63,161 nt of DNA from Desulfobacteraceae bacterium. Lineage in GTDB: Bacteria > Desulfobacterota > Desulfobulbia > Desulfobulbales > Desulfobulbaceae. This document shows, one piece after another, positions 5,589-23,500 of the stretch (within the stretch, counting starts at the first letter, position 1; every line of letters starts with the position of its first letter). Both the position numbers and the translations under genes were made by a program. The notes beneath the pieces are model-generated. The model was not told the origin of the DNA. It worked only from the letters and a program-made list of their open reading frames with translations, and did not search any database. The stretch lies in NCBI GenBank assembly GCA_011372855.1, contig DSAE01000177.1, positions 1 to 63,161 of the forward strand. Direction: 5' to 3'.

Positions 5589-5665
5589 TGGTGGGCCTAC
5601 CTGGACTCGAACCAGGGACCGACCGGTTATGAGCCGGTGGCTCTAGCCAACTGAGCTATAGGCCC
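5589..5665 (-). tRNA. tRNA with CAU anticodon (elongator Met, or Ile2 if lysidine-modified), CCA encoded
   Basis: The reverse complement folds as a cloverleaf: GGGCCUA UA GCUC AGUUGGCUA GAGC C ACCGG CUCAUAA CCGGU CGGUC CCUGG UUCGAGU CCAGG UAGGCCC ACCA. It is not an initiator: 1:72 is G-C and there is no GGG/CCC anticodon stem. Confidence 0.9.
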
Positions 5666-5869
5666 ATCTCGTCAGAATAACTTTTTATATTACCATGAAA
5701 AACAGACCGGTCAATATTTTTCTTAACATTTCTCGCCGAGGACCGGGACCAAGGGGATATTTGTCCGATCTTCGCGGAGTTGCTTGGCAGGGAGGAAATC
5801 AGTGACTATGATGTGAGGAACACAATTCGAACCGAAACGGCGACTGATTCAGGGAGTGCTCCTCAGAGA

Positions 5870-7684: not shown

Positions 7685-7699
7685 GGCCATGGGGCCAGG

Positions 7700-8578
7700 T
7701 CATGCGGCCGGGGCGGTCTTCTCCAGGCCGCCGGAGTCTGCATCCCGGGCCTCGGTCCAGGACCTGGGGCCAAGCTCCGCCATCAGTTCGGTGTTTTTGC
7801 AGTTCAGGATGACCGCGTCCACCCCGGCAGCCGTCAGCAGGGACAGCATGCCCGCCCCGGTCCGGCCGCCTTTCTGTACCCCTGCCTCCCGGGCACCTGC
7901 TCCCAGGGCGGCAATGGTTCTGACGCCGGTGTCGAGTCCCTTGATCAGGCTGATGCTTTCCGCCGTCGAACCGATATCGGGCAGCCCACGGCTGACATGC
8001 CAGGCAAAGGGGTCCGGGCGGCAGGCAAGGACCGGATCAAGATAGAGCCGGGAGAACGGCAGTCTGACCCGGTACGCCAGGTCGAGGACCTCCGCGGCCA
8101 GCAGCAGCCGGTCGTCGACTCCCCGGGGAGTGAGGCCGGGCCTGACCAGGAGCACCGCCAGGCCTGTTCCGTACTGTTCAGCGATCCGCATGGAAAGGGA
8201 GAGCGAGGCCGGATCGGCGGTTACGGCGTTGACAACGATCCGGTGGCCCAACGAGCGCAGGATGGCCGGATGGTCAAGGATGTTGGCGGAGACGAAGAGC
8301 GGGACATCGGTCCATTCAGCCAGCGAGGCAATGACCCAGGGCGTCAGTTCCCTCATTGTCCTTCCCGTCCCGAGGTTGACCGCCAGGGCCTGGGCGCCCG
8401 TGCGCAGGTGATGCAGGGCGAGCCGGCGGAGCATGGCGCCGTCCCGGCCGGTGACGGCTTCGTAGGCCAGCCGGTGGAGGACATGCAGGCCCTCGGCCAC
8501 CAGCAGAGGTTTCCGCTTCATGTCAATTGCGGGCTGGTCGAGGTTGATGGGCTCCACTGTGTGATTTTTCCCGGTCAT
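7700..8578 (-). CDS. Divergent pterin-binding domain protein (methyltetrahydrofolate:corrinoid methyltransferase / DHPS-like TIM barrel)
   Basis: The 292-aa version starts at MTGKNHT, preceded by AAAGGAGAAAAAG. The block pattern ALAVNLG, VPLFVSANILDHPAIL, RIVVNAVT, YGTGLAVLLV and LYLDPVL mirrors MeTr/AcsE-type pterin-binding barrels, but several canonical residues are substituted. Confidence 0.65.
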   Translation of the reverse strand: MTGKNHTVEPINLDQPAIDMKRKPLLVAEGLHVLHRLAYEAVTGRDGAMLRRLALHHLRTGAQALAVNLGTGRTMRELTPWVIASLAEWTDVPLFVSANILDHPAILRSLGHRIVVNAVTADPASLSLSMRIAEQYGTGLAVLLVRPGLTPRGVDDRLLLAAEVLDLAYRVRLPFSRLYLDPVLACRPDPFAWHVSRGLPDIGSTAESISLIKGLDTGVRTIAALGAGAREAGVQKGGRTGAGMLSLLTAAGVDAVILNCKNTELMAELGPRSWTEARDADSGGLEKTAPAA

Positions 8579-8620
8579 CTTTTTCTCCTTTGACGATGAA
8601 TGAAAAGGATTGGCCCGGGC

Positions 8621-8655
8621 AAAAAAAAACCCGGACCGACGGCGGTCGATCCGGG
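8621..8655 (-). terminator. Intrinsic terminator (riboswitch expression platform)
   Basis: Minus strand reads CCCGGAUCGAC-CGCC-GUCGGUCCGGG (11-bp stem) followed by U9. It lies about 40 nt upstream of the pterin-binding gene start. Confidence 0.7.
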
Positions 8656-8711
8656 ATGTCCCTTTTTTATCCACAGATACACCATGGCTTTCCCTGGTCC
8701 GCGAGGAAATC

Positions 8712-8900
8712 CAACAGGCAACAAGGCAGGTCTTCTGACTTTCCCGATCAATCAGCGGCCTTCCCGTCTCCCGGCGCGGGCCGGTCACAGACAGTGGCAT
8801 CGGTGCTGACGATCTTTTCCCGACAGGGGGGATCACAGCGGCGGGCCCGTCCCTGATTTGCACAGGGTTCCCTTTTCATCCGCGCAGGCGGAACCTTATT
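8712..8900 (-). promoter_or_regulatory. Cobalamin (B12) riboswitch
   Basis: Minus strand contains GGUUCC...AAAGGGAACCCUGUGCAAAUCAGGGACGGGCCCGCCGCUGU...CCACUG...GGGAAGGCC...AGUCAGAAGACCUGCC. These are the conserved core, the GGGAAGGC element and the B12 box of the cobalamin riboswitch class. Confidence 0.85.
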
Positions 8901-8907
8901 GGCTCCG

Positions 8908-8936
8908 ATCTTACCGGCAAAAGGGAGGCCTGTCAA
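8908..8936 (-). promoter_or_regulatory. Sigma-70-type promoter for the riboswitch leader
   Basis: Minus strand has TTGACA, a 17-nt spacer, then TAAGAT, immediately upstream of the riboswitch. Confidence 0.5.
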
Positions 8937-9039: not shown

Positions 9040-10581
9040 TCAGAGCAGGAAATCAGCCGGCTGGATATTGTATGAGGCGGGATGCAGCGTTTCGGCAATG
9101 GGAATCCGGTATTGCCGCGCCTCCGGGTCGTAGGAGCCGAGATTGACCAGATCCCCTTTCATAAACCTGCCGTCCTGCCCGGGCTCCAGCATCTGAACCC
9201 AGAGGTTCTGCTTTTCCCCCCTTTCCCCGGAGTATTTGGCCACCAGCCCTATTTCGCCGTTGTCAAGCTTAAGGAGGGTGCCGATGGGATAGACGCCGAT
9301 CATGTTGATGAAGACCTTGAGGAGGAGCGGGTCGAAATCCTTGCCGGAGCCTTCCTGCATGATGCTCAGGGCGCGGTCGGGGATGATGGCATAGGGACGG
9401 TAGACCCGGGGGGCGGTCAGAGCGTCGAAGACATCCGCGATCGAGATAATGCGGCCAAACAGGCTGAGGGGTTTGCTTCTCGGCGTCTGGGGGTAGCCGC
9501 TCAGATCGAATTTCAGGTGGTGTTCGAAGGGGGCGAGAAGCATTTGGGCTTTTTTCTCCTGGGTTGTCTTGAGCAGGAGAATCTGGCGGACGCTGTACAG
9601 GGAGTGGTTTTTCATCTCCTTGAATTCCTGGTCGGTGAGCTTGCCGGGCTTGTTGAGGATGGATTTCGGGACATTGATCTTGCCGAGGTCATGGAACAGG
9701 GCGCTGAGGGTCAGGATTTCCAGTGACTTCTTCGACAGGCCGATACGGTGGCCGAGGCACATGGACAGTATGGCGACATTGATGGAGTGGGTAAAGGTAT
9801 AATCATCATAGTGCCTGATCGTGCTCAGGCCGAGCAGGACATTGCTGTCCTCGGTGACCATGTCGATCAGCTTATGGACCATCCGCAGGGCTTTCTTGAT
9901 GCCCGTCGTCTGGTTGCTGGAAACCTTGCGGGCTATTTCCTGGAGGGACTGCACGGCATATCCGTAGGTCAGGACCGCCTTCTGCCTTGTAGTCAATTCC
10001 CGGGCGGATGCCGGTGATTCCGACCGGCCGTCGCCTCCCTCATCACCCCGGGAGTCATCCCCGCCCGCGGTCGACTCAGGGGCAAGGACCTCCTCAGGGT
10101 TGGCAGCCGATTCCGGCACATATTCAACCCAGGCCAGGTCGCGCCGGGCCAGTTCTTCCTCCAGCCATCCGGGCGGGTCCGCATGCTTTTCCGCGCTGAT
10201 CAGGAGGCGGGCAAAGGAAGCGATGTCCTCGGTGGAAGCTTCGGCCACGGCGGGCAGAAAACGTAATCCGCCGAGTTTTCTCTTTTCGAAAAAATCGAGC
10301 AGCGACTTGGCAATGCCCGCGATGTTGGAGCGGTAGACGACTTTTTCCTGCTGCAGGTAAAACCGGCCGGCAAAGGTCAGCAGGGTGACATCATCATCTT
10401 CTTCGAGCAGGCGTTTGATGATCGCGATAAACTGGTTGACGGAGGATATCAGGACACGATTATTGTCCTGGTGGATCCTGGCCGAATGGAGCAGCATGTT
10501 GAGCGCCGCCAGGAACTGCAGGTCGGGGAACGGCGAGGGGGGCCGCGGATCGGGCTTTGACCGTGATTGCATGTCGCTCAT
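9040..10581 (-). CDS. HD-GYP domain phosphodiesterase with uncharacterised N-terminal domain
   Basis: HD-GYP motifs: HSINVAILS, LFHDLGK, HHLKFDLSGYPQ. An acidic low-complexity linker separates the two halves. The ATG at 10581 lies 1 nt after the TAA of the upstream gene (TAAGATG). Confidence 0.85.
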   Translation of the reverse strand: MSDMQSRSKPDPRPPSPFPDLQFLAALNMLLHSARIHQDNNRVLISSVNQFIAIIKRLLEEDDDVTLLTFAGRFYLQQEKVVYRSNIAGIAKSLLDFFEKRKLGGLRFLPAVAEASTEDIASFARLLISAEKHADPPGWLEEELARRDLAWVEYVPESAANPEEVLAPESTAGGDDSRGDEGGDGRSESPASARELTTRQKAVLTYGYAVQSLQEIARKVSSNQTTGIKKALRMVHKLIDMVTEDSNVLLGLSTIRHYDDYTFTHSINVAILSMCLGHRIGLSKKSLEILTLSALFHDLGKINVPKSILNKPGKLTDQEFKEMKNHSLYSVRQILLLKTTQEKKAQMLLAPFEHHLKFDLSGYPQTPRSKPLSLFGRIISIADVFDALTAPRVYRPYAIIPDRALSIMQEGSGKDFDPLLLKVFINMIGVYPIGTLLKLDNGEIGLVAKYSGERGEKQNLWVQMLEPGQDGRFMKGDLVNLGSYDPEARQYRIPIAETLHPASYNIQPADFLL

Positions 10582-10582
10582 C

Positions 10583-12430
10583 TTATCTGCCCAAGGCGTG
10601 CTGACAGGCAAGCCGTATGTCCGGGCGCAGACTTTGCGCTCCTTTTTTCAATACGGCCATGGCCTCATCGGTGCCGATTGTTTTCAAGGCCATGGCCGCC
10701 CCTTTTTTATGAACGGCACTGGTGTTGCTGAACATGTCGCTGAGCCTGCTGTCCAGCAGGCTGCTTTCCAGAAAGGGAAGCGCATCATTTGAACGGCAGG
10801 AGGCGAGGGCCCTGTAGTTTTCGAAGATGATTTTCTGGTCGAACTGTTCACCGCCGGTCGTTGCCTGGGATAAAAAACGGATCAGGGTCCGGACGGCTGT
10901 TTTTTCCTCGCCGCTCAGCAGGTAGGAGGTGATCCGTTCCCGGACCGCGGTGCTGCCGTCCCCCAGGAGGTGAAAAAGATCATTGTAGTCGGGGGATTTC
11001 GTTGTCTGCATGTATCCGTCCAGGCCGATCCGGCGGACTTCCGCCGAACTGTGGCGGATCATGCACAGGTAGAGGTCCGCGGCCTTTTGCAAGGGCAGTT
11101 CCTTGATGACCGGCGCCAGCAGGATATTGACCTGCTCGCCCGAATTGTCCAGCAATATGCCCAGTTTCGCAGGATCCTCCTTTGCCTTGCTTTCAATAAT
11201 TTCCAGCAGTTCGTTGCGAATGTGCACATTATTGATCGGGATCCGCCCTGCCAACGGTCCCAGGGTAAAGATCACCTCCGGGTCGAGCAGCCGCAGCACC
11301 CGCCAGAGATGGGAGAGATAGGGGGTATTCTGCCAAAGGTACTCTTCGTTGGTCACCCACCAGGTCCGGTTGAGTTTGTCCGCTTCGGAGACGGAAGCGA
11401 TGAAGCCGTCAAGCAGGGTGAACGCCCAGGTTTTGCGATCCTGGAACAGTTTGCGGATAATGAGAATATTATTGAGCAATTTGTAGGAAAGGTGAAATTC
11501 GCCCCGGTCCATGGTTTCAAGGAACTCGAATTCGAGAAATTCCAGGACATGGAGAAAGCTTTCCCTGTTTTTCTGCGTAACAAGGATTATGAGCAGGACA
11601 TCGATCGCGTCACTGGTGAAATTTTTGCCTTCCTCGTCCTGCACGTACTCCTTGAGAATATTTTCCTCATCCGGGCTGATTTCCAGCAGCTTCATCCCCT
11701 GTTTCGACAGGAAGAGGTCGGCCCCGGATATCTGTTCCGGCTTTTCTGCCGGGGTCGCGCCCTGCTCGGCCATCCTGGCATCTCTTTCGGAGGCCGCGGC
11801 GGCGTGAACCCGTTTTTCCATCATGCTTGTCGGCCTGCCTGAGGTACCGGACTGCGGGGCCGGCGAAGAAGCGGCCCGGCGTGGGGCAGCGGCCGCGGCG
11901 TCAGGAGTGACCTGAAAGCCGGACAGATCAAACTGGAATGATTCCAGGGTGAAAATATCAACCTCCTCGTACAGGATATGGGGAAAATTGCTCTGCCACA
12001 ACGAGGTGACGATATCGCCCCCGGATTCGTCAAAAGGGTTGCGATGCTGGTTGAGGATGTTGAGCAGGCCGGAGATTTCGGGAGCCGTGATGCCCTGGAT
12101 GAATTCTATATATTCTATGCCGTCGCGGGTCAGCAGGTAGGCGGGGTTGCTTTCCTCCTCCTGGCCTTCATAGAGGATTTCGCCCTTGTAGGAAAAAGTG
12201 TTTCTGACCGTGTCAAGACGCAGCGACCGGTAGTTCTGGAGAAACGCATCGAGATCGTGCAGCAGTTTTGACAGGTTTCTGCGGGAGAAGGCGTGGTCGG
12301 CGGGATAAAGGGTATAGGTCTTGAATGCCGAGATAAAGGAAGGGAGCGTTTTCTTCACCGCCTGCAGCTCTTCCCGGCTCACGGTATCGGCAAGGGTGTT
12401 GTTAAGTTCCTGCATCGTCTCTGTCGGCAT
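10583..12430 (-). CDS. HEAT-repeat protein of unknown function
   Basis: 615-aa ORF with HEAT/PBS-lyase-like repeats at the C-terminus (SAEVRRIGLDGY, STAVRERITSYL, PDIRLACQHALG). Ala/Pro-rich central linker. Translationally coupled to the HD-GYP gene. Confidence 0.6.
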   Translation of the reverse strand: MPTETMQELNNTLADTVSREELQAVKKTLPSFISAFKTYTLYPADHAFSRRNLSKLLHDLDAFLQNYRSLRLDTVRNTFSYKGEILYEGQEEESNPAYLLTRDGIEYIEFIQGITAPEISGLLNILNQHRNPFDESGGDIVTSLWQSNFPHILYEEVDIFTLESFQFDLSGFQVTPDAAAAAPRRAASSPAPQSGTSGRPTSMMEKRVHAAAASERDARMAEQGATPAEKPEQISGADLFLSKQGMKLLEISPDEENILKEYVQDEEGKNFTSDAIDVLLIILVTQKNRESFLHVLEFLEFEFLETMDRGEFHLSYKLLNNILIIRKLFQDRKTWAFTLLDGFIASVSEADKLNRTWWVTNEEYLWQNTPYLSHLWRVLRLLDPEVIFTLGPLAGRIPINNVHIRNELLEIIESKAKEDPAKLGILLDNSGEQVNILLAPVIKELPLQKAADLYLCMIRHSSAEVRRIGLDGYMQTTKSPDYNDLFHLLGDGSTAVRERITSYLLSGEEKTAVRTLIRFLSQATTGGEQFDQKIIFENYRALASCRSNDALPFLESSLLDSRLSDMFSNTSAVHKKGAAMALKTIGTDEAMAVLKKGAQSLRPDIRLACQHALGR

Positions 12431-12726
12431 TGTTTCGGGGATTCGTCCGAAAGCCGCCTTGATCTGAGGACCGGCGGCCCGGAATGACTGAATTTATATA
12501 TGTTATATACTATGGAAGGAATTTTTGTAAAAAACAAGATTTTTTGTCGCATGATACCGGGGAGATAGAGCCAGGAAACGGAACAGTGAGCCCGGCCGGA
12601 AGGGGGATGCAACCCCCGGTGCCCCGCCGGAAATCATCGACGGGTGAAAAATATTCTCACATTCCTGTAATAATGGTAGAGTAGTGGTTATAGTTTACCT
12701 TACCTCTCAACCACGTCGGAAAAGTC

Positions 12727-15700
12727 ATGAATGGTGTGCAAGACAGCGTAAAATTCACCTCGGACGCCCTGCGGGCCAATCTCGAGGAAACCGCGGGCGA
12801 AGTCGTCGTCGACCCGGCCTTCGATCCCCTGCGGGAAGCCGTCGGCAATTATCAGGGACTGGCGGGCAAACTGGATCTGCTCCTGCTGGAAATCCATCAT
12901 CCGTACAGGAACTGGGGCTTCATTATTCCTGAACTGCGGGCCTTTGTCCTGAAAAACATGTCCCATTACCTGTCCCATGACCTGGGGCCGGAATGCTTCC
13001 GTCTGTTTACCGGTATTTTTCTCGAGGCCCTGGTCGATTCACGCAAAAACAGCAAGCTGGTGTCCATGATCATGGAGGCCATGCTGGCGTATACGGACAA
13101 GCTGGTCAATTCGATCAGTCCGGAGGAGCTGTTCCGCTACGAGAAGGCATGTAATGATTTTTTCGCCCGCCTGATCGACCTCGACCAGGTGGAGGGACAG
13201 CTGATGATGTACATGGTCCAGGGACATCATCCGATGAAAAAGGTCGCCCAGAAGCTTGCTTCCCTCAGCTGCGCCGATCCGGCGGTTTCCTTTGACTACG
13301 GGCCGGTGGCCAGGCTCATGCGCAAAATCCTGGCCCTGAACTATCAGTACTGGCTGAGCGAGGAAGATCCCCTCCCCTGGTTTCTCGAGGAGTGCGGGGA
13401 GTACTGTTATGACTGGCACGCCGGTCCGCTGCTGGCGGCGGTCTCCCATGAACAGTTCAGAAAATACCGGGATGAGCTCGCCGCCATCACCATTGAAGGG
13501 GACGCCCGAACGGCCTTGACCCGTATTCTCGAGCTGCCGAACCACATGGATATTGTCCGCCTCTATCGGGAGATACCCGGCAAGCTGGCCCGGGATGAGG
13601 AGGCGGACTCCACCTTCGCCGAAAACCGGAAACTCCTCTTCCTGTTCCGGATCATGGATACCTCCGGGTTGTACCTGATCCACGAGGAAACCCTGCGGGA
13701 GATCAACCGCAGCCTCGTTCAGTTGATCCGGATGCAGTCCTTCGAGCATATCGAGCAGTTTTTCGTGACGACCTTTCATCTGCTCAAAGCCAACGTCCGC
13801 CGCTATCCGCATACGTCCCTGCAGTGCATCCAGGTCATCGGCGGCGAAGTGTTCAAGCGGGGCAATTCACGCCTGGTCGAAACGTTTTTGTGGGAGGCCG
13901 TCCGCTTCGGATTTCAGTATGCCAATGTCATGGGAGTGGACGAGGACTGGCAGCCGATAACCAACCCGGCCCACCTGGCCAATATCAGAGTATGGCTCAA
14001 TTTGATCATGCAGGAGCCCAAATGGTGCTCCACCCTGTTTTCCGCCCTGATCATCAACCTGAAGCTGTCCGGGACCTGCGTCAAGGATACCGACCTCTTC
14101 CAACGGGATATCACCGAGCTGCTCAACCATCCCATTGAGCCCATTTACAACCTGGCCAAACAGTTCACCAAGCTGATGCCGGTCTTTTTCAACGAGATCG
14201 GCGCCGAGGGAGAATTGCGGGACGTCTCCACCGAGCTCGATGAACTGCACAACCGCCGGGACCTCCTTATCCATTTTCTGCGGAAACAGAGCCATGTCGA
14301 GTCGAGCAACCTGATCGTCGACTTCATCATCGCTATTTTTCAATTCTGGCTGAAATGCGACAAGGAGTTCCTGCGGTCGTTTCTGCCCGAGGAGGTCTAC
14401 CGGCAGGTCGAAACGAGCGGCCCCTTTGTCGATGAGCAGCATCTGCTGGCCCAACGCATCCGCAAGGAACTGAAGTTCACAAAGGTTCAGGATATCCTGC
14501 ATTGGAAGGAGCAGGACCGCTGGAGCTACCTGGCCCGCCAGGAAGATATCTCCGTGGTTGAGCGGCACCGGTTCGAACTGCTGGTCAAAATGTTCAAGCT
14601 CCTCCATCACAAATACAACCTCGGCCTGCAGGAACTGCGCTATCAGCTGCGGCAGGCGACATTGACCGGTTTTCCCGAGCTGGAGGACCTGCTGGAAATA
14701 CTTGACGACTGCGACACGTTTACCTGTCTGGCCGCCATCCTCGACCACCTGGAGCAGCTCAAGGAGATCATTCTCAGCAAGGAAAAATTTCCCCCCAAGG
14801 AGGAAATTTACCACAAGCGCCATATCGCCGTCGATATCCCCTCGGTGTACGGCCGCTACAGCGAACGGAAGTTCGACGCCCTTGGACTGACCTTCCGGCT
14901 GGAGAACCTGGCCAACATCTACCTGGAACGGCTGTCGGACACGATCAATCTCACCTTCATCACCGAGGCGACGTTCATCCGCATTTCCCGGTGCCTGAAG
15001 CTGTACCAGCGGGCCCTGCGCATTGACGGAATCATCAGCCGCAAGCTCGACACCTTTATCAGCCTCCTGGCCTCTTCCATGGGGATCAAGAGGTTTTCCT
15101 ACACCCAGTATCTTGATATCTTCCGCGGCATGTCCGAGGGCGTCAAGGATATCATTTATGCCTACTATACCAATATCCACCAGAACAACCTGTCGATCAT
15201 CATCCCCCAGATCGGCGAGGACAACCTGCTGACCAAGTACCGCAAGCACTGGGACGGGAACGATCTCGCTTCCACGGTCCACCGGCTGTCGGAGACCTTT
15301 TTCCGGGACCTCATCTCCTCCACCTTCGGTCTGCAGCACCTGGACAATTTCATCACCCGGATCATGCAGACCCTGGAAGCCCAGCGGGACATCCTGGACG
15401 AGAGCGACCTGGATCTGTTGATGACCTACAACCCGGACAAAACCATCAGCTCTCTGTACAGGGAGAATCCCCGGACCCACAATCTGATTCACCTCGGCAA
15501 CAAGGGGTTCAACCTCATGGTGATGGCGCGGGACGGCAAGCCCGTACCCCCCGCCTTCATCATCACCACCGAGGTTTTCCGCTGCTGGCCGGCGGTCCGC
15601 CGTTTTGAACGGGTGCGGGACGATTTCATGCAGCGGGTACGAAAGTCGATCAGCGGCATTGAGCAACTGACCGGTTCGGTGTTCGGCTCCCCCGACAAGC

Positions 15701-16974
15701 CGCTCCTCCTCTCCGTGCGCTCCGGTTCCGCCATGTCCATGCCGGGCATGATGACGACCATCCACAACATCGGCCTGAACGAAGACCTGATCAACGAGTA
15801 TGTCCAGGAAACGGGGCGGGGCTATTTCGCCTGGGATAATTTCCGCCGTTTTCTCCAGTCCTGGGGCATGGCCCAGGGAATAGACCGGGAGGATTTTCAG
15901 GCGCTGATGAACAGCCATAAACAGCGTTATCACGTCACGCTGAAACGGGAGTTCAGCCCCTCGGCCATGCAGGAACTGGCCCTCAGGTATCTGGAGCTTG
16001 TCCGCAGACGGGGCCTGGATGTGCCCGATGATCCGTGGCGGCAGCTGATCAAATCGGTGGAGATGGTGCTTGATTCATGGAACACCGAAAAGGTGCATGA
16101 ATACCGGCGGCTGATGAGGTTGTCGGAGGACTGGGGAACAGCGGTCATCATCCAGGCCATGGTGTACGGCAATCTCGGACAGAACTCGGGCAGCGGCGTT
16201 GTGTTCACCGCCCATCCTTACCGCAAGGTCAGAAGGGTGGCGCTCTGGGGCGACTATGCCCCCGGTGATCAGGGAGAGGACATCGTTTCCGGTCTGGTGA
16301 CCAGCCATCCCATCTCCGTTGAGCAGGCGCAGATTGACGGGCGCCCGGAGGAGAATTCACTGGAAAAGCGTTTTCCGGCCATTTACGAAAGGCTGCTGTC
16401 CATATCGCGGGACCTGGTCTACACCAAGGGATGGAACCCCCAGGAAATCGAATTCACCTTCGAGGGGCCGGAGGCGGATCAATTGTATATCCTGCAGACC
16501 CGGGACATGATCACCATCAAGACCATGGAGCGGTTCACGGTTTTTGCCGATGAGGCGGAGGTGCAGAAGTTCATCCTCGGCAAGGGGATCGGCGTCAGCG
16601 GCAGCGCCCTGTGCGGGCGGGCGGTTTTTACGGAGCAGAACATCGACCGGCTGCGCCGGGATGATCCCGAGACGCCGCTTATCCTCATCCGCCAGGATAC
16701 CGTCCCCGAGGATATCAGGGAAATATCCCTGGCCGACGGGCTGCTGACCGCACGGGGCGGTCAGACATCGCACGCGTCGGTTGTCGCCATCCGGCTCGAA
16801 AAAACCTGCGTGGTGGGTATCCGTGATCTGCGGGTGTACGAGACCGAGGAATACGCCGAGATAAACGGCCACCGGATCGGATTCGGCGACCCCATTGCCA
16901 TTGACGGGCGTTCCGGCCTTTTCGTCCGAGGCATGCATCCGGTGCGGGAGGAGGTGCACATCCTGCCGCTGTAG
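12727..16974 (+). CDS. Giant PPDK-like dikinase: ~915-aa unknown N-terminal region + ATP-grasp nucleotide-binding domain + phosphohistidine swivel domain, no PEP/pyruvate TIM barrel
   Basis: From about residue 919 (nt 15481) the sequence parallels the PPDK N-terminus: LGNKGFNLMVMARDGKPVPPAFIITTEVF and PLLLSVRSGSAMSMPGMMTTIHNIGLN. The swivel motif LLTARGGQTSHASVVAIRLEKTCVVG follows (His codon at 16771-16773). The ORF stops about 65 aa later. Confidence 0.85.
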   Translation: MNGVQDSVKFTSDALRANLEETAGEVVVDPAFDPLREAVGNYQGLAGKLDLLLLEIHHPYRNWGFIIPELRAFVLKNMSHYLSHDLGPECFRLFTGIFLEALVDSRKNSKLVSMIMEAMLAYTDKLVNSISPEELFRYEKACNDFFARLIDLDQVEGQLMMYMVQGHHPMKKVAQKLASLSCADPAVSFDYGPVARLMRKILALNYQYWLSEEDPLPWFLEECGEYCYDWHAGPLLAAVSHEQFRKYRDELAAITIEGDARTALTRILELPNHMDIVRLYREIPGKLARDEEADSTFAENRKLLFLFRIMDTSGLYLIHEETLREINRSLVQLIRMQSFEHIEQFFVTTFHLLKANVRRYPHTSLQCIQVIGGEVFKRGNSRLVETFLWEAVRFGFQYANVMGVDEDWQPITNPAHLANIRVWLNLIMQEPKWCSTLFSALIINLKLSGTCVKDTDLFQRDITELLNHPIEPIYNLAKQFTKLMPVFFNEIGAEGELRDVSTELDELHNRRDLLIHFLRKQSHVESSNLIVDFIIAIFQFWLKCDKEFLRSFLPEEVYRQVETSGPFVDEQHLLAQRIRKELKFTKVQDILHWKEQDRWSYLARQEDISVVERHRFELLVKMFKLLHHKYNLGLQELRYQLRQATLTGFPELEDLLEILDDCDTFTCLAAILDHLEQLKEIILSKEKFPPKEEIYHKRHIAVDIPSVYGRYSERKFDALGLTFRLENLANIYLERLSDTINLTFITEATFIRISRCLKLYQRALRIDGIISRKLDTFISLLASSMGIKRFSYTQYLDIFRGMSEGVKDIIYAYYTNIHQNNLSIIIPQIGEDNLLTKYRKHWDGNDLASTVHRLSETFFRDLISSTFGLQHLDNFITRIMQTLEAQRDILDESDLDLLMTYNPDKTISSLYRENPRTHNLIHLGNKGFNLMVMARDGKPVPPAFIITTEVFRCWPAVRRFERVRDDFMQRVRKSISGIEQLTGSVFGSPDKPLLLSVRSGSAMSMPGMMTTIHNIGLNEDLINEYVQETGRGYFAWDNFRRFLQSWGMAQGIDREDFQALMNSHKQRYHVTLKREFSPSAMQELALRYLELVRRRGLDVPDDPWRQLIKSVEMVLDSWNTEKVHEYRRLMRLSEDWGTAVIIQAMVYGNLGQNSGSGVVFTAHPYRKVRRVALWGDYAPGDQGEDIVSGLVTSHPISVEQAQIDGRPEENSLEKRFPAIYERLLSISRDLVYTKGWNPQEIEFTFEGPEADQLYILQTRDMITIKTMERFTVFADEAEVQKFILGKGIGVSGSALCGRAVFTEQNIDRLRRDDPETPLILIRQDTVPEDIREISLADGLLTARGGQTSHASVVAIRLEKTCVVGIRDLRVYETEEYAEINGHRIGFGDPIAIDGRSGLFVRGMHPVREEVHILPL

Positions 16975-19825: not shown

Positions 19826-20035
19826 TCAACGTGACTCCGGCACTCCGAATTTCTTGAGCACCAGTCCCAGGGGGCAGAATCCGGAAAACCCGTACTGGAA
19901 GAGATTCGCTCCGACAAAGGCGGTGAACCAGAGCCAGTATTTGCTCAGAAAAACAGGGCTGGCCTCCACGCCCAGGGCGAGGCTGAGCAGGATGAAGGCG
20001 CCGGCGAAAACGTGAATATAGTCATTGACGGTCAT
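19826..20035 (-). CDS. DUF2892 (YgaP-like) small membrane protein
   Basis: 69-aa two-TM protein (RIxxGxxLL-like hydrophobic pattern, CPLGLVLKKFG near the C-terminus). GGAGAAG Shine-Dalgarno before the ATG at 20035. Lies downstream of an ArsR gene, as is common. Confidence 0.65.
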   Translation of the reverse strand: MTVNDYIHVFAGAFILLSLALGVEASPVFLSKYWLWFTAFVGANLFQYGFSGFCPLGLVLKKFGVPESR

Positions 20036-20119
20036 GTTTCTTCTCCATGGAAAGGCAGCGCGCTGCAAGGTGAGCCCGAGGCAGGGAACCAGGCAGCGAA
20101 GCCCGGGAGTCTTGTCCTG

Positions 20120-20455
20120 TCAGGCGTTCCGGCTTTCCTCCCGGTCGCAGAACAGGAGCCGCATCGTCTTGATCAGCTCCGTGATCCGGCCGTCGCTGAT
20201 CCGGTTGCAGATGAAATTGGCGTCCCTGCGGAAGTCGATAATGCCGTGGCTTCTCAGTATGGCAAGGTGCTGGGAGACATTGGCATGGGTGGTCCGGACT
20301 TCTTTCCTGATATCCCCCACCGTCATTTCCTTTTCCTGGAGAAGGCAGAGAATTTTGAGCCGGATGGGATGGGCTATCGATTTCAGCAATTCGGCCAACT
20401 GTTCCATTTCACTGTACTGCATGGGCGAAACGGGTGGAAAAATTGCGGCCCGCAT
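20120..20455 (-). CDS. ArsR/SmtB family transcriptional regulator
   Basis: Winged-helix pattern: LLKSIAHPIRLKILCLLQEKEMTVGDI...NVSQHLAILRSHGII. An alternative start lies at 20422. Confidence 0.8.
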   Translation of the reverse strand: MRAAIFPPVSPMQYSEMEQLAELLKSIAHPIRLKILCLLQEKEMTVGDIRKEVRTTHANVSQHLAILRSHGIIDFRRDANFICNRISDGRITELIKTMRLLFCDREESRNA

Positions 20456-20614
20456 CGGCAGGCCTCGGTTGTAATTACAGTTTTTAATTTAATGCTTAAA
20501 TACATTTCGTCAAGGAAGAAAGACCGGCCTGCAATACCAGGGGCAGCGCCGCCCCTTTCCCATTTCCCGCAATGCCGGACAAGGCGGCGGATTTGGGAAT
20601 AATTCACAATCTCC

Positions 20615-21151
20615 TTACGATATTCGTTCGTTTTTCGGAAAAAGCCTGATATAGAGATACATTGCCGCCACCACCATGCCGATATTGATGCCGAGGTCGG
20701 GCAGGACCCTGTTCTCCCGGTACAGGAAGGAAAGACAGGTGAGGAGCGTCAGGAAGAGGTAGCCGGTGCGGTGAAAACGGAAAATTTCCCGGAGGACGTA
20801 AAAATTGATTGTCGGCACAATGAAGTCGGCGGCCAGATAAAAATCAAAATGACCCGCGGCTGAAATGGCGGCCAGACGTCGGAGGGTCATGGCGAGCAGG
20901 ACCGCGCCCAGCAGCAGGTTGACCCACATGTATTTGCGGCGCCGGAAAAGGGGGGATTTGTTGTTCAGCAGGAAGAGTAATTTCGCCTGATTTTCCTCGG
21001 TCCTGAGCCGGGAGAAGATGGCTTTTTTGCTGGTGCCCTCCTGCAGCAGTCGTTCCACCTGTTTGTCAAGGGATTCGGCCATGGGTTCCTCGTCATAAAT
21101 CATTGCCCCCCGCCGGGGGACGGCAGGGGTGGTAAAAATCATGATTTTCAA
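20615..21151 (-). CDS. Hypothetical membrane protein
   Basis: Soluble charged N-terminus followed by 3-4 hydrophobic helices. No recognisable motif. Start uncertain: TTG 21151, ATG 21142 or 21103. Confidence 0.5.
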   Translation of the reverse strand: MKIMIFTTPAVPRRGAMIYDEEPMAESLDKQVERLLQEGTSKKAIFSRLRTEENQAKLLFLLNNKSPLFRRRKYMWVNLLLGAVLLAMTLRRLAAISAAGHFDFYLAADFIVPTINFYVLREIFRFHRTGYLFLTLLTCLSFLYRENRVLPDLGINIGMVVAAMYLYIRLFPKNERIS

Positions 21152-21357
21152 TACTCTATCTTGACAGGAACATCAACATGGGTAAATTGGAGCGTGCCTT
21201 TTATGGGGATGTCAGGCCAAGATTGACATGAATTCAGGGTCATACGAGCCAGGATAAGATGGCGCGTTTCGCGCTGCCGCACCGTGCGCGGCAATGAAAA
21301 AGGAATAGATTGAACTTTGGATGTTGGATAAAGATTTAACATGAGAAGGAGTGCACT

Positions 21358-23343
21358 ATGAGTGGAAATCAGGACAAAATCACCAGTCTGCTCAGCGAGG
21401 CCCGGATTTTCGAGCCTCCGGCGGAGAACCGGGATTCGGCCTATGTCAAAAGCATGGATGAATACCGTGCCCTGTATGACCGTTCCATGGATGATCCGGA
21501 AGGGTACTGGGCCGAGAGGGCGGAAGAGTTGACCACCTGGGACAGGAAATGGGACAGTGTTCTGGAGTGGGATTTCTCGACGCCTGATATCAAATGGTTC
21601 CGGGGCGCCCGGCTCAACGTGGCGTACAACTGTCTTGACCGGCACCTGACCGACGGCCGGCGGAACAAGGCGGCCCTGATCTGGCAGGGTGAGCCTGAGG
21701 AAGACGTCATGGTCTACACCTACCAGATGCTCCATTCGGCGGTTTGCCGCTTTGCCAATGTACTGAAGAAAAAAGGAGTGAAGAAGGGCGACAGGGTTTC
21801 CATCTATCTGCCGATGATTCCCGAGTTGGCCATTTCCCTGCTTGCCTGCGCCAGGATCGGCGCCGTCCACTCCGTGGTTTTTGCCGGGTTTTCCGCCATT
21901 GCGCTGCAGAGCCGTATCCAGGACAGCGAAGCCAAGGTCCTGATCACCTCCGACGCGGTCCTGCGGGCGGGCAAAATCATCCCGCTCAAGCCCAACGCCG
22001 ACACCGCCCTGGAGAACTGCCCGACGATCAAGGACTGCATCGTGGTCAGACGGGCCGGCAACGAGGTGTCCATGAGGGAGGGAAGGGACACCTGGTGGCA
22101 TGAAGAAGTCGGGGCCGACGATATCACCACGGAGTGCCCGCCCGAGTCCATGGACGCCGAGGACACCCTTTTCATTCTGTATACTTCCGGCTCAACCGGC
22201 AAGCCCAAAGGGGTGGTGCACACCACCGGCGGCTACCTGACCTATGCCATGCATACCTGCCAGTATGTCTTCGATCTGAAGGATAACGACGTCTTCTGGT
22301 GCACAGCGGATATCGGCTGGATCACCGGTCACACCTATATTGTCTACGGCCCCCTGGGTCTTGGAGCGACATCACTGATGTTCGAGGGTGTGCCCACCTA
22401 TCCCGCTTCGGACCGCTTCTGGAAAGTGGTCGAAAAGTTCAAGGTGGACATCTTCTACACCGCCCCGACGGTTATCCGCTCCCTGATGCGGGAGGGGGAG
22501 GAGCCGACCAGGCGCCATGATCTGTCCAGCCTGCGGCTGCTGGGGACGGTGGGCGAGCCGATCAATCCCGAGGCCTGGATGTGGTATCACGCCAATATCG
22601 GCAAGTCCAGGCTGCCGGTTGTCGACACCTGGTGGCAGACCGAAACCGGCGGGATTCTCATCTCGCCGCTGCCGTACGCCACCCCCCTGAAACCGGGGTC
22701 GGCGACGTTTCCCCTGCCGGGAGTCGACGCCGCCATTTACACCGAGGACGGCAGAGAGGCCGGGCCCAATGAAGGAGGGCACCTGGTCATCCGCAAACCC
22801 TGGCCGGGCATGCTGCGCGGTGTCTTCGGCGATCCGGAGCGGTTCAAGAAGACCTATTTCAGCCGCTATGAAAATATTTACGACCCGGAAGACGGCGCCC
22901 GCAAGGATGAGGACGGCTATTACTGGATAATGGGCCGCCTTGATGACGTTATCAATGTTTCCGGCCATCGGCTGGGCACCGCGGAAATAGAGTCGGCGCT
23001 GGTGGCCCATCCGGCGGTGGCCGAAGCGGCCGTGGTCGGCATGCCGCACCCGATCAAGGGGCAGTCGATATACGCCTATGTGACCCTGACCGCCGCGGCC
23101 ACGGAAAGCGACGAACTGCGTAAGCAGCTGGTTCAGCATGTCCGCAAGGAGATCGGCCCCATTGCCACCCCGGAGATCATCCAGTGGGCGCCGGGTCTGC
23201 CCAAGACCCGTTCGGGCAAGATCATGCGCCGCATTTTGCGCAAGATCGCCGCCAACGAACACGCCGATTTCGGCGACACTTCGACCCTCGCCGATCCGAG
23301 TGTGGTCGACAGTCTGCTGCAGGACCGCCAATCGATGGGTTAA
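21358..23343 (+). CDS. acs: Acetyl-CoA synthetase
   Basis: 661 aa with [20 protein letters not shown] and the C-terminal [18 protein letters not shown]. Unmistakable Acs pattern. Confidence 0.95.
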
Positions 23344-23448
23344 GGGAGATTTTTCCTCCGACTCCCGGCGGGCCAGGGTCGGTCCCGCCCCGCGGATTTC
23401 CGCGGGTGGATTCAGTCAGGAAGTCGGGAGGAGAAAATGATCAAAGCG

Positions 23449-23489
23449 GCAGGCAGAGCGCGTCACGGTGCTCTGCCTGCTTTCGGTTT
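23449..23489 (+). terminator. Hairpin / partial terminator between acs and the downstream gene
   Basis: Perfect 11-bp stem GCAGGCAGAGC-N10-GCTCTGCCTGC followed by TTTCGGTTT. It ends about 12 nt before the next ATG, so it could act as an attenuator rather than a full stop. Confidence 0.45.
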
Positions 23490-23500
23490 GGGAGAACGAC

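What the first reader, a model, noticed from the sequence alone, without database searches (positions are those of the whole stretch)
12727..16974. 1415-aa dikinase-like protein: large unknown N-terminal region fused to PPDK ATP-grasp and swivel-His domains, without the pyruvate/PEP barrel
Residues from about 919 to the end reproduce the PPDK nucleotide-binding domain (GKPVPPAFIITTEVF; LSVRSGSAMSMPGMMTTIHNIGLN). They also reproduce the phosphohistidine carrier (GGQTSHASVVA, His codon 16771-16773). The ORF ends about 65 aa after the His, so the PEP/pyruvate TIM barrel is absent.

In known enzymes with this truncated layout (rifampin phosphotransferase, glucan water dikinases), another domain binds the phosphate acceptor. 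Here the only candidate is about 915 aa with no motif I can place.

The implied activity is ATP-dependent phosphorylation via a phospho-His of an unknown substrate, whether small molecule, polymer or protein. Its divergent pairing with an HD-GYP operon hints at a signalling role.
Basis: partly seen in the sequence, partly recalled or inferred. Interest (0 to 1): 0.7.

Follow-up and report, generated by a model that had tools for sequence, protein, structure and literature searches.

The report
GAPDH-linked dikinase with novel acceptor domain
This 1415-residue protein is a real ATP-driven phosphohistidine "dikinase" in which an unknown all-helical domain replaces the usual pyruvate-binding barrel. 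Across several bacterial phyla its gene sits next to the glycolytic enzyme GAPDH, so it probably performs an undescribed step at the 3-phosphoglycerate/1,3-bisphosphoglycerate node.

Summary
**Observation: confirmed.**
- ORF 12727-16974 (+) encodes 1415 aa.
- Residues 918-1403 align to the ATP-grasp and swivel-His domains of pyruvate phosphate dikinase (PPDK). All checked catalytic residues are kept. His1349 is codon 16771-16773.
- The protein ends 66 aa after the His, with no PEP/pyruvate barrel.
- Residues 1-915 match no Pfam, NCBIfam, PADLOC or PDB entry.

**Not an artefact.**
- More than 1000 homologues keep the same architecture (604 clusters at 50% identity).
- They come from Thermodesulfobacteriota, Magnetococcus marinus MC-1, Bacteroidales and Delongbacteria.
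- An AlphaFold model (pLDDT 86, pTM 0.80) is all-helical with one β-hairpin. It has no real Foldseek match in the PDB.
- The N-terminal core is as conserved as the catalytic domains.

**Interpretation: partly supported.**
- The HD-GYP/HEAT pairing occurs only in the 4 closest relatives.
- The family-wide neighbour is GAPDH: 48 of 76 Desulfobulbales loci, 8 of 8 distant loci, and 59 of 80 metagenome loci, usually about 100-160 bp away. It is the only widely conserved neighbour in distant clades.

**Best inference (unproven).** A GAPDH-coupled dikinase interconverting 3-phosphoglycerate and 1,3-bisphosphoglycerate, with ATP going to AMP, as an alternative to phosphoglycerate kinase. This is a new variant of a known enzyme kind.

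The parts
12727..16974 (+). Complete gene for the 1415-aa dikinase-like protein (stop codon included)
   Evidence: ORF list and translation. A full-length homologue of 1415 aa is 96% identical over the N-terminal 915 aa searched (P0001; locus L002).
12727..15471 (+). N-terminal domain, aa 1-915. All-helical with one β-hairpin, with no known family or fold. Presumed acceptor-binding and partner-docking module.
   Evidence: No hit in Pfam, NCBIfam or PADLOC. A PDB profile search gave nothing. The AlphaFold2 model has pLDDT 86.2 and pTM 0.80. Foldseek against the PDB gave only generic solenoids at TM about 0.1.
13597..14406 (+). Most conserved N-terminal core, aa 291-560. Family-wide motifs: W408..H416..R421; D454-T-D456-L-F; P485..I491-G-A-E-G495..R498..T502..D505-E506; F517-x-R519-K520-x-x-H523-x-E525.
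   Evidence: Mean identity to 112 family members is 58%, against 54% for the ATP-grasp domain. Residues at least 97% conserved are listed.
14797..14907 (+). Predicted β-hairpin, aa 691-727, carrying the near-invariant motif E692-x-I-Y-x-K697-R698-H699-I-A-x-x-I704-P-S706-x-Y708-G709-x-Y711-x-E713-x-x-F716...R724.
   Evidence: Strands at 691-698 and 706-712 are among the very few β elements in the model. The residues are at least 97% conserved in 113 sequences.
15478..16506 (+). PPDK-type ATP-grasp nucleotide-binding domain, aa 918-1260
   Evidence: Pfam PPDK_N. TIGR01828 aligns 922-1260 to profile positions 17-335. PDB alignment to 1kbl/9pzl. Catalytic residues are kept in 111-113 of 113 members.
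16573..16935 (+). Swivelling phosphohistidine (PEP-utilizers mobile) domain, aa 1283-1403
   Evidence: Pfam PF00391 at 1317-1394. Aligns to the isolated PPDK His-domain structure 2fm4 (E 1.7e-17).
16771..16773 (+). Codon CAC for His1349, the predicted phospho-carrier histidine (GGQ-T1347-S-H1349)
   Evidence: Aligned with PPDK His455. His is present in 112 of 113 members and Thr1347 in 113 of 113.
12431..12726 (.). Intergenic region of 296 bp between the dikinase gene and the divergent HEAT-repeat gene. One weak sigma-70-like match lies at 12484-12511 (+).
   Evidence: The match is 9 of 12 positions and its count is not above the shuffle expectation, so the location of the promoter is not established.

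Best explanation
**What it is**
The gene encodes a functional member of a widespread, uncharacterised family of His-swivel dikinases.

**Shown by sequence**
- A PPDK-type ATP-grasp domain and a swivel-His domain with intact catalytic residues occupy the C-terminal 500 aa.
- The PEP/pyruvate TIM barrel is absent in every member examined.
- A roughly 900-aa all-helical domain of unknown fold lies at the N-terminus. Its core is as conserved as the catalytic domains.

**Shown by comparative genomics**
The family is specifically linked to glyceraldehyde-3-phosphate dehydrogenase (GAPDH) genes across phyla.

**Inferred mechanism**
1. ATP pyrophosphorylates His1349 at the ATP-grasp site.
2. The gamma-phosphate is passed to Pi, giving PPi as in PPDK, or to water.
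3. The His~P domain swings to the N-terminal domain.
4. There it phosphorylates the carboxylate of 3-phosphoglycerate to give 1,3-bisphosphoglycerate, the GAPDH substrate. The reverse direction would make ATP from AMP + PPi at the expense of 1,3-bisphosphoglycerate.

The enzyme would then be an AMP-forming alternative to phosphoglycerate kinase (PGK) that serves a dedicated GAPDH. The large helical domain would probably also dock that GAPDH.

**Confidence**
- The general statement (active dikinase, novel acceptor domain, GAPDH-linked function) is about 0.85 likely.
- The specific substrate assignment is about 0.4. The confidence figure given refers to that assignment.
For: **Catalytic module**
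- The PPDK-type module is intact.
- It scores far better against PPDK (TIGR01828, 354 bits) than against PEP synthase (54-63 bits) or rifampin phosphotransferase (28 bits).

**N-terminal domain**
- Core segments 291-560 and 691-915 are 58% and 53% identical on average across 112 members. The ATP-grasp and His domains are 54% and 59%.
- The N-terminal domain has 58 residues conserved in at least 97% of members. Among them are 10 Arg/Lys, 4 His and 12 Asp/Glu. This fits a site for a polyanionic phospho-substrate plus Mg2+ (inference).

**GAPDH linkage**
- Desulfobulbales: a 334-aa gap gene lies immediately upstream on the same strand in 48 of 76 loci with enough flank (median gap 159 bp). glgA lies upstream of that in 43 of 64 loci.
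- Distant members: 8 of 8 loci have GAPDH adjacent. These include Desulfobacterales, Bacteroidales and Magnetococcus marinus MC-1.
- Independent metagenome loci from distant clades: 59 of 80 have GAPDH in the flanks.
- GAPDH is the only widely conserved neighbour there: 62 of 88 loci at a median 123 bp. The next family occurs in 10 loci.
- Gene arrangements differ between clades (co-directional upstream, co-directional downstream, divergent, convergent). The link is therefore not one inherited operon.

**Parallel with gap-pgk**
- Desulfobulbales carry gapL-GNAT-pgk-tpi-secG at one locus.
- They carry glgA-gapS-dikinase at another.
- The dikinase thus takes the position beside a GAPDH that pgk takes in the other operon.

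**Chemistry (established knowledge)**
- Phospho-His to carboxylate transfer is known from succinyl-CoA synthetase and ATP-citrate lyase.
- Replacing ATP->ADP by ATP+Pi->AMP+PPi lowers the reaction energy by roughly 16-20 kJ/mol. Compare PPDK at +11.5 kJ/mol with reversed pyruvate kinase at about +28 to +31 kJ/mol (own knowledge).
- That would bring the PGK reaction (about +19 kJ/mol) close to equilibrium.
Against: - No biochemical data exist for any member, and no paper was found.
- Gene adjacency cannot tell 'uses the GAPDH substrate' from 'acts on the GAPDH protein'.
- PGK is present next to or near the dikinase in several loci (L086, L087, L088, L170). The dikinase is therefore not needed to replace it.
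- A 900-aa helical solenoid-like domain is large for a three-carbon substrate and looks more like a protein-binding scaffold.
- About 10 of the distant loci with adequate flanks, and the window itself, have no GAPDH nearby.
- Use of Pi/PPi rather than water is inferred only from greater similarity to PPDK.
Confidence: 0.4

Rival explanations
1. The acceptor is the GAPDH protein itself. The helical N-terminal domain docks the GAPDH tetramer, and the phospho-His modifies a GAPDH residue to regulate or repair it. One example would be ATP-dependent activation of an over-oxidised catalytic cysteine, as in sulfiredoxin. Alternatively the dikinase is a sensor-controlled regulator of flux at the triose-phosphate node.
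For: - The same GAPDH adjacency applies.
- The N-terminal fold resembles alpha-solenoid protein-binding scaffolds, although only at TM about 0.1.
- Some members carry an N-terminal hemerythrin (O2/iron-sensing) domain.
- The hosts are anaerobes or microaerophiles, in which GAPDH is oxidation-sensitive (established knowledge).
Against: - Among characterised relatives with an ATP-grasp domain plus a swivel His, none is known to phosphorylate a protein (own knowledge). PTS Enzyme I does, but it uses PEP and a TIM barrel.
- The very high, enzyme-like conservation of many buried-looking polar residues in the core fits a small-molecule site better than a docking surface.
- Both GAPDH paralogues, gapS and gapL at 34-40% identity to each other, are partners in different clades. 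That is harder to reconcile with one specific protein interface.
Confidence: 0.2
2. It is a glucan or other storage-polymer dikinase, functionally like plant glucan, water dikinase. It would phosphorylate glycogen made by the neighbouring glycogen synthase.
For: - A GlgA-like gene (Glyco_transf_5 plus Glycos_transf_1) lies two genes upstream in 43 of 64 Desulfobulbales loci.
- Glucan dikinases also lack the TIM barrel (established knowledge).
Against: - glgA is associated only in Desulfobulbales. Among the 80 distant metagenome loci only 2 had a weak glgA-like hit, 3-5 kb away.
- No glgA cluster appears among the conserved neighbours there.
- No carbohydrate-binding module is detected.
- The domain order differs from glucan dikinases, where the His domain comes before the ATP domain.
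Confidence: 0.07
3. It is a non-orthologous replacement of PEP synthase/PPDK, in which the helical N-terminal domain binds pyruvate/PEP in place of the TIM barrel. It would act with GAPDH in a gluconeogenic regulon.
For: - The catalytic half is most similar to PPDK.
- The context includes gluconeogenesis-related genes: gap, glgA and acs.
Against: - The linkage is specifically to GAPDH, not to enolase or phosphoglycerate mutase.
- A genome survey that validated dikinases by their TIM-barrel residues reports that M. marinus relies on a pyruvate water or phosphate dikinase plus PEP carboxykinase. This suggests a canonical dikinase co-exists with this protein. I did not verify the gene itself.
- Every characterised PEP-utilising enzyme uses the TIM barrel for pyruvate/PEP chemistry (established knowledge).
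Confidence: 0.07
4. One reading: a signalling kinase that works with the divergently transcribed HEAT-repeat/HD-GYP (cyclic-di-GMP phosphodiesterase) genes.
For: - In the window the HEAT gene (10583-12430, -) and the HD-GYP gene (9040-10611, -) diverge from the dikinase gene across a 296-bp intergenic region.
- The same arrangement is found in L002-L005.
Against: - The pairing occurs in only 4 of 81 Desulfobulbales loci, all among the closest relatives at 78-96% identity.
- It is absent in Desulfolithobacter.
- No HD-domain or HEAT-repeat neighbour is listed next to the gene in any of the 8 distant loci examined.
- It is therefore a recent rearrangement, not a conserved partnership.
Confidence: 0.03
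5. Artefact: a mis-assembled or mis-called fusion of two genes, or a decaying pseudo-enzyme.
For: None found.
Against: - More than 1000 homologues from independent assemblies, including complete genomes, keep the same single-ORF architecture. Those genomes include AP024233, CP178758, CP000471 and CP050698.
- The 113 aligned members are 1335-1540 aa long.
- Catalytic residues are invariant.
Confidence: 0.01

Closest known systems
Pyruvate, phosphate dikinase (PPDK, EC 2.7.9.1; for example Clostridium symbiosum 1KBL/1DIK)
   Same: - Residues 918-1403 align end to end with PPDK residues 16-509, covering the ATP-grasp domain, linker and swivel-His domain (E 3e-72).
- K22, R92, G101, R135, E323, Q335, R337, T453 and H455 equivalents are conserved, with D321 replaced by Glu.
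- The probable chemistry is the same: ATP to AMP through a pyrophosphoryl/phospho-His intermediate.
   Different: - There is no PEP/pyruvate TIM barrel.
- A 915-aa helical domain lies N-terminal to the ATP-grasp domain instead.
- TIGR01828 scores 354 bits against a cut-off of 843.
- The genomic partner is GAPDH.
Rifampin phosphotransferase (RPH) and its relatives misnamed 'PEP synthase' (PRK06241 group; also PigC/RedH)
   Same: - The logic is the same: ATP-grasp plus a C-terminal swivel His, with no TIM barrel.
- A non-homologous domain supplies the acceptor site.
   Different: - In RPH the acceptor domain is inserted between the ATP-grasp and His domains. Here it precedes both, and only about 20 residues separate the ATP-grasp and His domains.
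- NCBIfam RPH scores 27.6 bits against a cut-off of 999.
- No RPH chain appears among the top 50 Foldseek matches.
Alpha-glucan, water dikinase (GWD/PWD)
   Same: - A dikinase without a TIM barrel whose N-terminal region binds the acceptor.
- glgA lies nearby in Desulfobulbales.
   Different: - GWD has CBM45/CBM20 modules, and its His domain comes before the nucleotide-binding domain.
- No carbohydrate-binding module is present here.
- The glgA linkage is confined to one clade.
Phosphoglycerate kinase (PGK), the proposed functional analogue
   Same: - The gene position beside gap is comparable: gap-pgk-tpi against gap-dikinase.
- The proposed substrate pair is the same, 3-phosphoglycerate and 1,3-bisphosphoglycerate.
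   Different: - There is no sequence or fold relationship.
- PGK transfers directly between ADP and ATP without a phospho-enzyme.
- The dikinase would use ATP to AMP through His~P.
- The analogy is inferred from context only.
PTS Enzyme I
   Same: It has a swivel phospho-His domain of the same Pfam family (weak hits, E 0.01-0.03) and transfers phosphate to a protein.
   Different: - Enzyme I is charged by PEP on a TIM barrel.
- It has no ATP-grasp domain.
- It has an HPr-binding domain that is not found here.

Membership tests
Pyruvate, phosphate dikinase (TIGR01828 / EC 2.7.9.1) | ATP-grasp nucleotide-binding domain with K22, R92, D321, E323, Q335 and R337 | tested here: met
   K926, R998, E1240 (Asp to Glu), E1242, Q1257 and R1259 are conserved in 111-113 of 113 members.
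Pyruvate, phosphate dikinase (TIGR01828 / EC 2.7.9.1) | Swivel domain with the catalytic His (GG-x-TSH) | tested here: met
   The sequence is GGQ-T1347-S-H1349. Pfam PF00391 gives E 3e-15.
Pyruvate, phosphate dikinase (TIGR01828 / EC 2.7.9.1) | C-terminal PEP/pyruvate TIM barrel (PF02896; R561, R617, E745, D769, C831) | tested here: not met
   The ORF ends 66 aa after the His and there is no PF02896 hit. The family-wide tail is 39-77 aa. TIGR01828 scores 354 bits against a cut-off of 843.
PEP synthase / pyruvate, water dikinase (TIGR01418) | Whole-protein score above the curated cut-off, and a TIM barrel | tested here: not met
   54 bits against a cut-off of 740. Only residues 1237-1367 match.
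Rifampin phosphotransferase (NF041857) | Order ATP-grasp, then inserted rifampin-binding domain, then C-terminal His domain; curated score | tested here: not met
   27.6 bits against a cut-off of 999. Nothing is inserted between the ATP-grasp domain (to about 1260) and the His domain (from about 1283). The extra domain is N-terminal. No RPH chain appears among the top 50 Foldseek matches.
Glucan, water dikinase | N-terminal starch-binding modules (CBM45/CBM20), with the His domain upstream of the nucleotide-binding domain | tested here: not met
   No CBM Pfam hit. The domain order is ATP-grasp then His.
Generic 'His-swivel dikinase' mechanism (ATP to AMP via E-His~P) | Autophosphorylation of the His by the beta-phosphate of ATP | not testable with these tools
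   This needs labelling with [beta-32P]ATP versus [gamma-32P]ATP and an H1349A control.
New family defined here (N-terminal helical domain + PPDK_N + PEP-utilizers, about 1335-1540 aa) | N-terminal motifs E55-x-x-H58, W408/H416, D454-x-D456, IGAEG491-495, R519-K520-x-x-H523 and K697-R698-H699...Y708-G709 | tested here: met
   All are present in the window protein and at least 97% conserved in 113 members.
New family defined here | GAPDH gene adjacent to the dikinase gene | tested here: not met
   The 63-kb window contains no gap, pgk, tpi or glgA. The linkage holds in 48 of 76 related Desulfobulbales loci, 8 of 8 distant loci and 59 of 80 metagenome loci. It has been lost in the window's own clade (L002-L005). 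This is a contextual feature, not a sequence one, so it does not exclude membership.

The most novel reading that the evidence does not exclude
Lower glycolysis/gluconeogenesis in many anaerobic and microaerophilic bacteria contains a previously unrecognised enzyme. It would be a 3-phosphoglycerate dikinase built from a PPDK-type ATP-grasp/swivel-His module and a structurally novel helical domain. It would catalyse ATP + 3-phosphoglycerate (+ Pi) <-> AMP + 1,3-bisphosphoglycerate (+ PPi).

The host groups include sulfate reducers, sulfur disproportionators, cable bacteria, Magnetococcus, Bacteroidales and Delongbacteria.

The enzyme would work with a dedicated GAPDH as a PGK-independent route. 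In one direction it would be a strongly driven gluconeogenic step. In the other it would be a substrate-level phosphorylation that salvages AMP and PPi, which are the by-products of sulfate activation.
Probability: 0.35. Interest if true: 0.85.

Novelty: new variant of a known kind. Interest (0 to 1): 0.72.

Why it matters
**If the substrate assignment is right**
- The PGK step is regarded as universal and without alternatives. The other ATP-yielding step of glycolysis does have a dikinase counterpart (pyruvate kinase versus PPDK/PEP synthase).
- A dikinase at the 3-phosphoglycerate/1,3-bisphosphoglycerate step would complete that symmetry.
- It would change the ATP/PPi bookkeeping of energy-limited anaerobes, including cable bacteria and sulfate reducers.

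**Whatever the substrate**
- The family is large: at least 604 clusters at 50% identity, and more than 560 species genomes.
- It is routinely mis-annotated as 'pyruvate phosphate dikinase' or 'PEP synthase', which can corrupt metabolic reconstructions.
- It contains a roughly 900-aa domain with no structural relative in the PDB.
- It has a clear, testable partner (GAPDH) and cultured hosts: Magnetococcus marinus MC-1, Desulfolithobacter dissulfuricans, Desulfobulbus elongatus and Desulfosediminicola flagellatus.

Tried and rejected
**Family and structure searches on the N-terminal domain**
- Pfam, NCBIfam and PADLOC scans gave nothing on residues 1-915.
- A profile search of PDB sequences with an N-terminal alignment gave only a chance hit to RsbU (E 0.19).
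- The first AlphaFold2 model used a shallow alignment of sequences 67-96% identical to the query. It reached pLDDT 70.7, with the conserved loops disordered, and gave no Foldseek hit.
- It was re-run with 88 sequences at 31-96% identity and reached pLDDT 86.2, but still gave only TM about 0.1 solenoid matches.

**Ideas tested and dropped**
- The HD-GYP/HEAT partnership is not conserved.
- The tblastn signal for the ORF at 20012-20602 (+) in 22 loci came from a shadow ORF. The real gene there is an ArsR-family regulator on the minus strand (20120-20455), belonging to the acs cluster.
- Enolase is reported missing in some cable bacteria. As an explanation this was rejected because the family is far broader than cable bacteria and enolase is present in several of them.
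- No fusion of the N-terminal domain to another enzyme, which could have hinted at function, was found. Every protein with Pfam hits shows the same dikinase domains, and the only extra domain is an N-terminal hemerythrin.
- The large ORFs in the window were checked for a canonical PPDK. They are alaS and mutS instead.
- Literature searches for the family, its NCBI name, and a 3-phosphoglycerate dikinase returned nothing relevant.

**Not possible with these tools**
- Whole-genome presence/absence of pgk, ppdK and ppsA.
- Prediction of a complex with GAPDH.
- Inspection of model coordinates.

Full report
**1. Observation**

The ORF 12727..16974 (+) starts with ATG and encodes 1415 aa. Codon 16771-16773 is CAC, giving His1349.

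- Pfam finds PPDK_N (923-1202, E 3.5e-27) and the PEP-utilizers mobile domain (1317-1394, E 3e-15). It finds nothing else above noise.
- NCBIfam places the C-terminal half closest to pyruvate, phosphate dikinase: TIGR01828 gives 354 bits, far below the 843-bit cut-off. PEP synthase (54-63 bits), rifampin phosphotransferase (28 bits) and PigC/RedH (30-33 bits) score much lower.
- Against PDB sequences, residues 918-1403 align continuously with residues 16-509 of Clostridium symbiosum PPDK (E 3e-72). That covers the ATP-grasp domain, linker and swivel-His domain.
- The protein ends 66 aa after the His, so the PEP/pyruvate TIM barrel is absent.

**2. Not an artefact: a large, conserved family**

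- A search with only the N-terminal 915 aa returned at least 1058 proteins. The 120 listed are 67-96% identical. Most are 1412-1444 aa and carry both dikinase domains; a few are truncated partials. They come from Desulfobulbaceae, cable bacteria (Electrothrix, Electronema), Desulfolithobacter and Desulfogranum.
- An exhaustive HMMER search of representatives at 50% identity found 604 clusters down to 28% identity. The full-length clusters are about 1335-1540 aa.
- Most of the distant representatives scanned show PPDK_N, usually with PEP-utilizers. A few shorter or more divergent ones gave no Pfam hit. Two carry an extra N-terminal hemerythrin domain. No other fusion partner was seen.
- A scan of one genome per species found relatives in at least 567 genomes. 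The window is 96% identical to a Desulfobulbaceae MAG (BF_dRep_26, L002).
- Named members include Magnetococcus marinus MC-1 (WP_011714018.1), Bacteroidales and Candidatus Delongbacteria. All are annotated only as 'PEP/pyruvate-binding domain-containing protein', 'pyruvate phosphate dikinase', 'PEP synthase' or 'hypothetical'.
- In 113 aligned members the tail after the swivel His is 39-77 aa, so none has a barrel.

**3. Catalytic competence**

The equivalents of PPDK K22, R92, G101, R135, D321, E323, Q335, R337, T453 and H455 are K926, R998, G1007, R1041, E1240, E1242, Q1257, R1259, T1347 and H1349. Each is conserved in 111-113 of 113 members. Nothing suggests a pseudo-enzyme.

**4. The N-terminal 915 aa**

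- No family model matches, and neither does a PDB sequence profile.
- A first AlphaFold2 model from a shallow alignment was mediocre (pLDDT 70.7).
- With 88 sequences spanning 31-96% identity the model reached pLDDT 86.2 and pTM 0.80. It is about 45 helices plus one β-hairpin (691-698 and 706-712).
- Foldseek against the PDB returned only generic alpha-solenoids (importins, FANCI, PP2A-A and the like) at TM about 0.1 and rmsd above 24 Å. No rifampin phosphotransferase, PGK or DhaL-type hit appeared among the top 50 matches. The fold has no solved relative.
- Conservation is uneven. Segments 291-560 and 691-915 average 58% and 53% identity across the family, equal to the ATP-grasp (54%) and His (59%) domains. 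Segments 1-290 and 561-690 average 34-36%.
- The N-terminal domain has 58 residues conserved in at least 97% of members. They cluster in the motifs E55-x-x-H58, W408...H416...R421, D454-T-D456, I491-GAEG...R498...T502...D505-E506, R510-x-D512, F517-x-R519-K520-x-x-H523-x-E525, and E692-x-IY-x-K697-R698-H699...IPS706-x-Y708-G709-x-Y711-x-E713 on the hairpin.
- The many invariant Arg/Lys/His and Asp/Glu residues fit a catalytic pocket for an anionic phospho-compound plus a metal. This is inference.

**5. Genomic context: the key result**

*In the window.* The gene diverges from a HEAT-repeat gene (10583-12430, -) and an HD-GYP gene (9040-10611, -). It converges on a DUF4136-like gene, followed by nadA and a macro-domain gene. 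The HEAT/HD-GYP pairing is present in only 4 of 81 Desulfobulbales loci, all among the closest relatives. It is absent in Desulfolithobacter. It is a lineage-specific rearrangement.

*Desulfobulbales.*
- A 334-aa type-I GAPDH gene lies immediately upstream on the same strand in 48 of 76 loci with enough flank (median gap 159 bp).
- A GlgA-like glycogen synthase lies upstream of that in 43 of 64 loci.
- ArsR and acetyl-CoA synthetase genes follow downstream in 15-22 loci.

*Distant members.* All eight loci fetched individually have GAPDH adjacent:

| Locus | Source | Arrangement |
|---|---|---|
| L082 | Desulfobacterales | dikinase then gapL |
| L083 | Bacteroidales | gap divergent |
| L084 | not named | tpi-secG divergent; gapL and gap convergent |
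| L085 | not named | dikinase then gapL |
| L086 | not named | gap, dikinase, gapL |
| L087 | not named | gapL convergent; gap-pgk-tpi nearby |
| L088 | not named | gap, dikinase, gapL, pgk |
| L089 | M. marinus MC-1 | sucAB-lpd, dikinase, gapL |

*Independent metagenome set.*
- I fetched 80 loci centred on a clade about 30% identical to the window. Of these, 59 have GAPDH in the flanks.
- In 32 loci it is the long paralogue, nearly always directly downstream.
- In 34 loci it is the short paralogue upstream, either co-directional or divergent.
- Unbiased clustering of all neighbours in the 88 distant loci shows GAPDH in 62 loci at a median 123 bp. The next most frequent neighbour family occurs in only 10 loci.

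With 1-3 gap genes per genome, chance adjacency is on the order of 0.1% (my own estimate). The varied arrangements also rule out simple inheritance of one operon. The window itself has no gap, pgk, tpi or glgA in its 63 kb.

**6. The two GAPDHs**

- gapS (about 334 aa) is a standard type-I enzyme with the NAD-specifying Asp (I-N-D-L).
- gapL (403-430 aa) scores just below the TIGR01534 cut-off (322-344 bits against 367).
- gapL keeps the catalytic Cys and His and the Arg of the SVR-I/V-P motif.
- gapL carries four or five insertions and lacks that Asp.
- gapL has no solved structure of its own subtype.
- gapL is 60-69% identical from Magnetococcales to Desulfobulbaceae.
- In Desulfobulbales, gapL heads a classical gapL-GNAT-pgk-tpi-secG operon (L170, L171). 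gapS sits with glgA and the dikinase.

These organisms therefore have a 'gap + pgk' unit and a 'gap + dikinase' unit.

**7. Mechanism**

*Shown.* The ATP-grasp/swivel-His machinery is intact. There is no barrel. The N-terminal core is novel and conserved at enzyme-like levels. The genetic coupling to GAPDH is specific.

*Inferred.*
1. His1349 is charged from ATP, which goes to AMP. The gamma-phosphate goes to Pi, given the closer similarity to PPDK, or to water.
2. His1349 delivers the phosphoryl group at the N-terminal domain.
3. The acceptor that best explains a two-gene module with GAPDH is 3-phosphoglycerate, giving 1,3-bisphosphoglycerate.

Supporting chemistry:
- Phospho-His to carboxylate transfer has precedent in succinyl-CoA synthetase and ATP-citrate lyase (established knowledge).
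- Exchanging ATP->ADP for ATP+Pi->AMP+PPi lowers the reaction energy by roughly 16-20 kJ/mol. Compare PPDK at +11.5 kJ/mol with reversed pyruvate kinase at about +28 to +31 kJ/mol (own knowledge).
- That would bring the PGK reaction (about +19 kJ/mol) near equilibrium.
- The enzyme could therefore drive gluconeogenesis, or in reverse make ATP from AMP + PPi. Those are the by-products of sulfate activation in many of the hosts.

I put about 0.4 on this assignment. The rivals are:
- About 0.2 on GAPDH protein as the acceptor (regulation or repair). The hemerythrin-fused members and the solenoid-like shape favour this.
- Less than 0.1 each on glycogen or pyruvate as substrate.
- About 0.03 on the HD-GYP signalling idea.
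- The remainder on some other metabolite.

*Against the leading idea.* PGK co-occurs, sometimes in the same cluster. The domain is very large for a three-carbon substrate. There are no experimental data.

**8. Comparison with known families**

- The protein works like PPDK in its first half-reaction.
- Its overall logic (a non-barrel acceptor domain) resembles rifampin phosphotransferase and glucan dikinases.
- It fails the defining tests of each: no barrel, no inserted rifampin-binding domain, no carbohydrate-binding module, a different domain order, and scores far below the cut-offs.
- It is best described as a new variant of the His-swivel dikinase kind, with its own recognisable family signature.
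- No publication on it was found.

**9. Verdict**

The dikinase with an unknown acceptor domain stands. The HD-GYP signalling link does not.
- The new element is the cross-phylum coupling to GAPDH. It turns 'unknown substrate' into a sharply testable hypothesis at a step of glycolysis thought to have no alternative enzyme.
- Interest is 0.72.

Noticed in passing
window 8708-8913 (-): A cobalamin riboswitch (RF00174, 99.9 bits) overlaps the 5' end of the listed ORF 7700-8863 (-). That gene's true start must therefore lie downstream of 8708, and it is probably B12-regulated. It has no Pfam hit. The riboswitch also separates it from the HEAT/HD-GYP pair upstream.
   Followed up: partly
window 9040-12430 (-): A HEAT-repeat gene (10583-12430, 615 aa) and an HD-GYP/HD_5 gene (9040-10611, 523 aa) overlap by 29 bp and look like one operon. 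They diverge from the dikinase gene only in the window's closest relatives (L002-L005).
   Followed up: yes
window 20120-28460: Acetate-utilisation cluster: ArsR-family regulator (20120-20455, -) divergent from acetyl-CoA synthetase (21358-23343, +); a cNMP-binding/CBS/DUF294 nucleotidyltransferase (23468-25435); an RNase_T-type exonuclease (25436-26152); and an SSF permease (26694-28460). In Desulfocapsaceae-type loci the ArsR-acs part lies directly downstream of the dikinase.
   Followed up: partly
window 13867-15933 (-), 29564-32182 (-), 20012-20602 (+), 6401-7690 (-): These are long antisense 'shadow' ORFs inside or over real genes: the dikinase, alaS, ArsR, and an M48 peptidase/TPR gene at 5780-7684 (+). 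The 20012-20602 ORF gave misleading tblastn conservation until the minus-strand ArsR gene was recognised.
   Followed up: yes
window 2671-3041 (-) and 5592-5665 (-): RNase P RNA (class A, 318 bits) and a tRNA gene. The rest of the window carries housekeeping genes: NIF3, nadA, macro domain, alaS, fabF-like, ATP synthase alpha/beta, mutS and an amidase. This is an ordinary chromosomal region, not a mobile element.
   Followed up: partly
L082, L084-L089, L170, L171 and 32 of L090-L169: A distinct long GAPDH paralogue (gapL, 403-430 aa) has 4-5 insertions, including one of about 31 aa near the C-terminus, and lacks the NAD-specifying Asp32. It is 60-69% identical from Magnetococcales to Desulfobulbaceae and has no solved structure of its subtype. 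In Desulfobulbales it heads gapL-GNAT-pgk-tpi-secG. Elsewhere it directly follows the dikinase gene.
   Followed up: partly
P0170 and P0168 (family members outside the window): Some family members carry an extra N-terminal hemerythrin (HHE cation-binding) domain. This suggests control by O2, iron or NO in those lineages.
   Followed up: no
L170/L171 9218-9661: A small GNAT acetyltransferase gene is conserved between gapL and pgk in Desulfobulbales, overlapping the gapL stop by 4 bp. It may acetylate or regulate a glycolytic enzyme.
   Followed up: no
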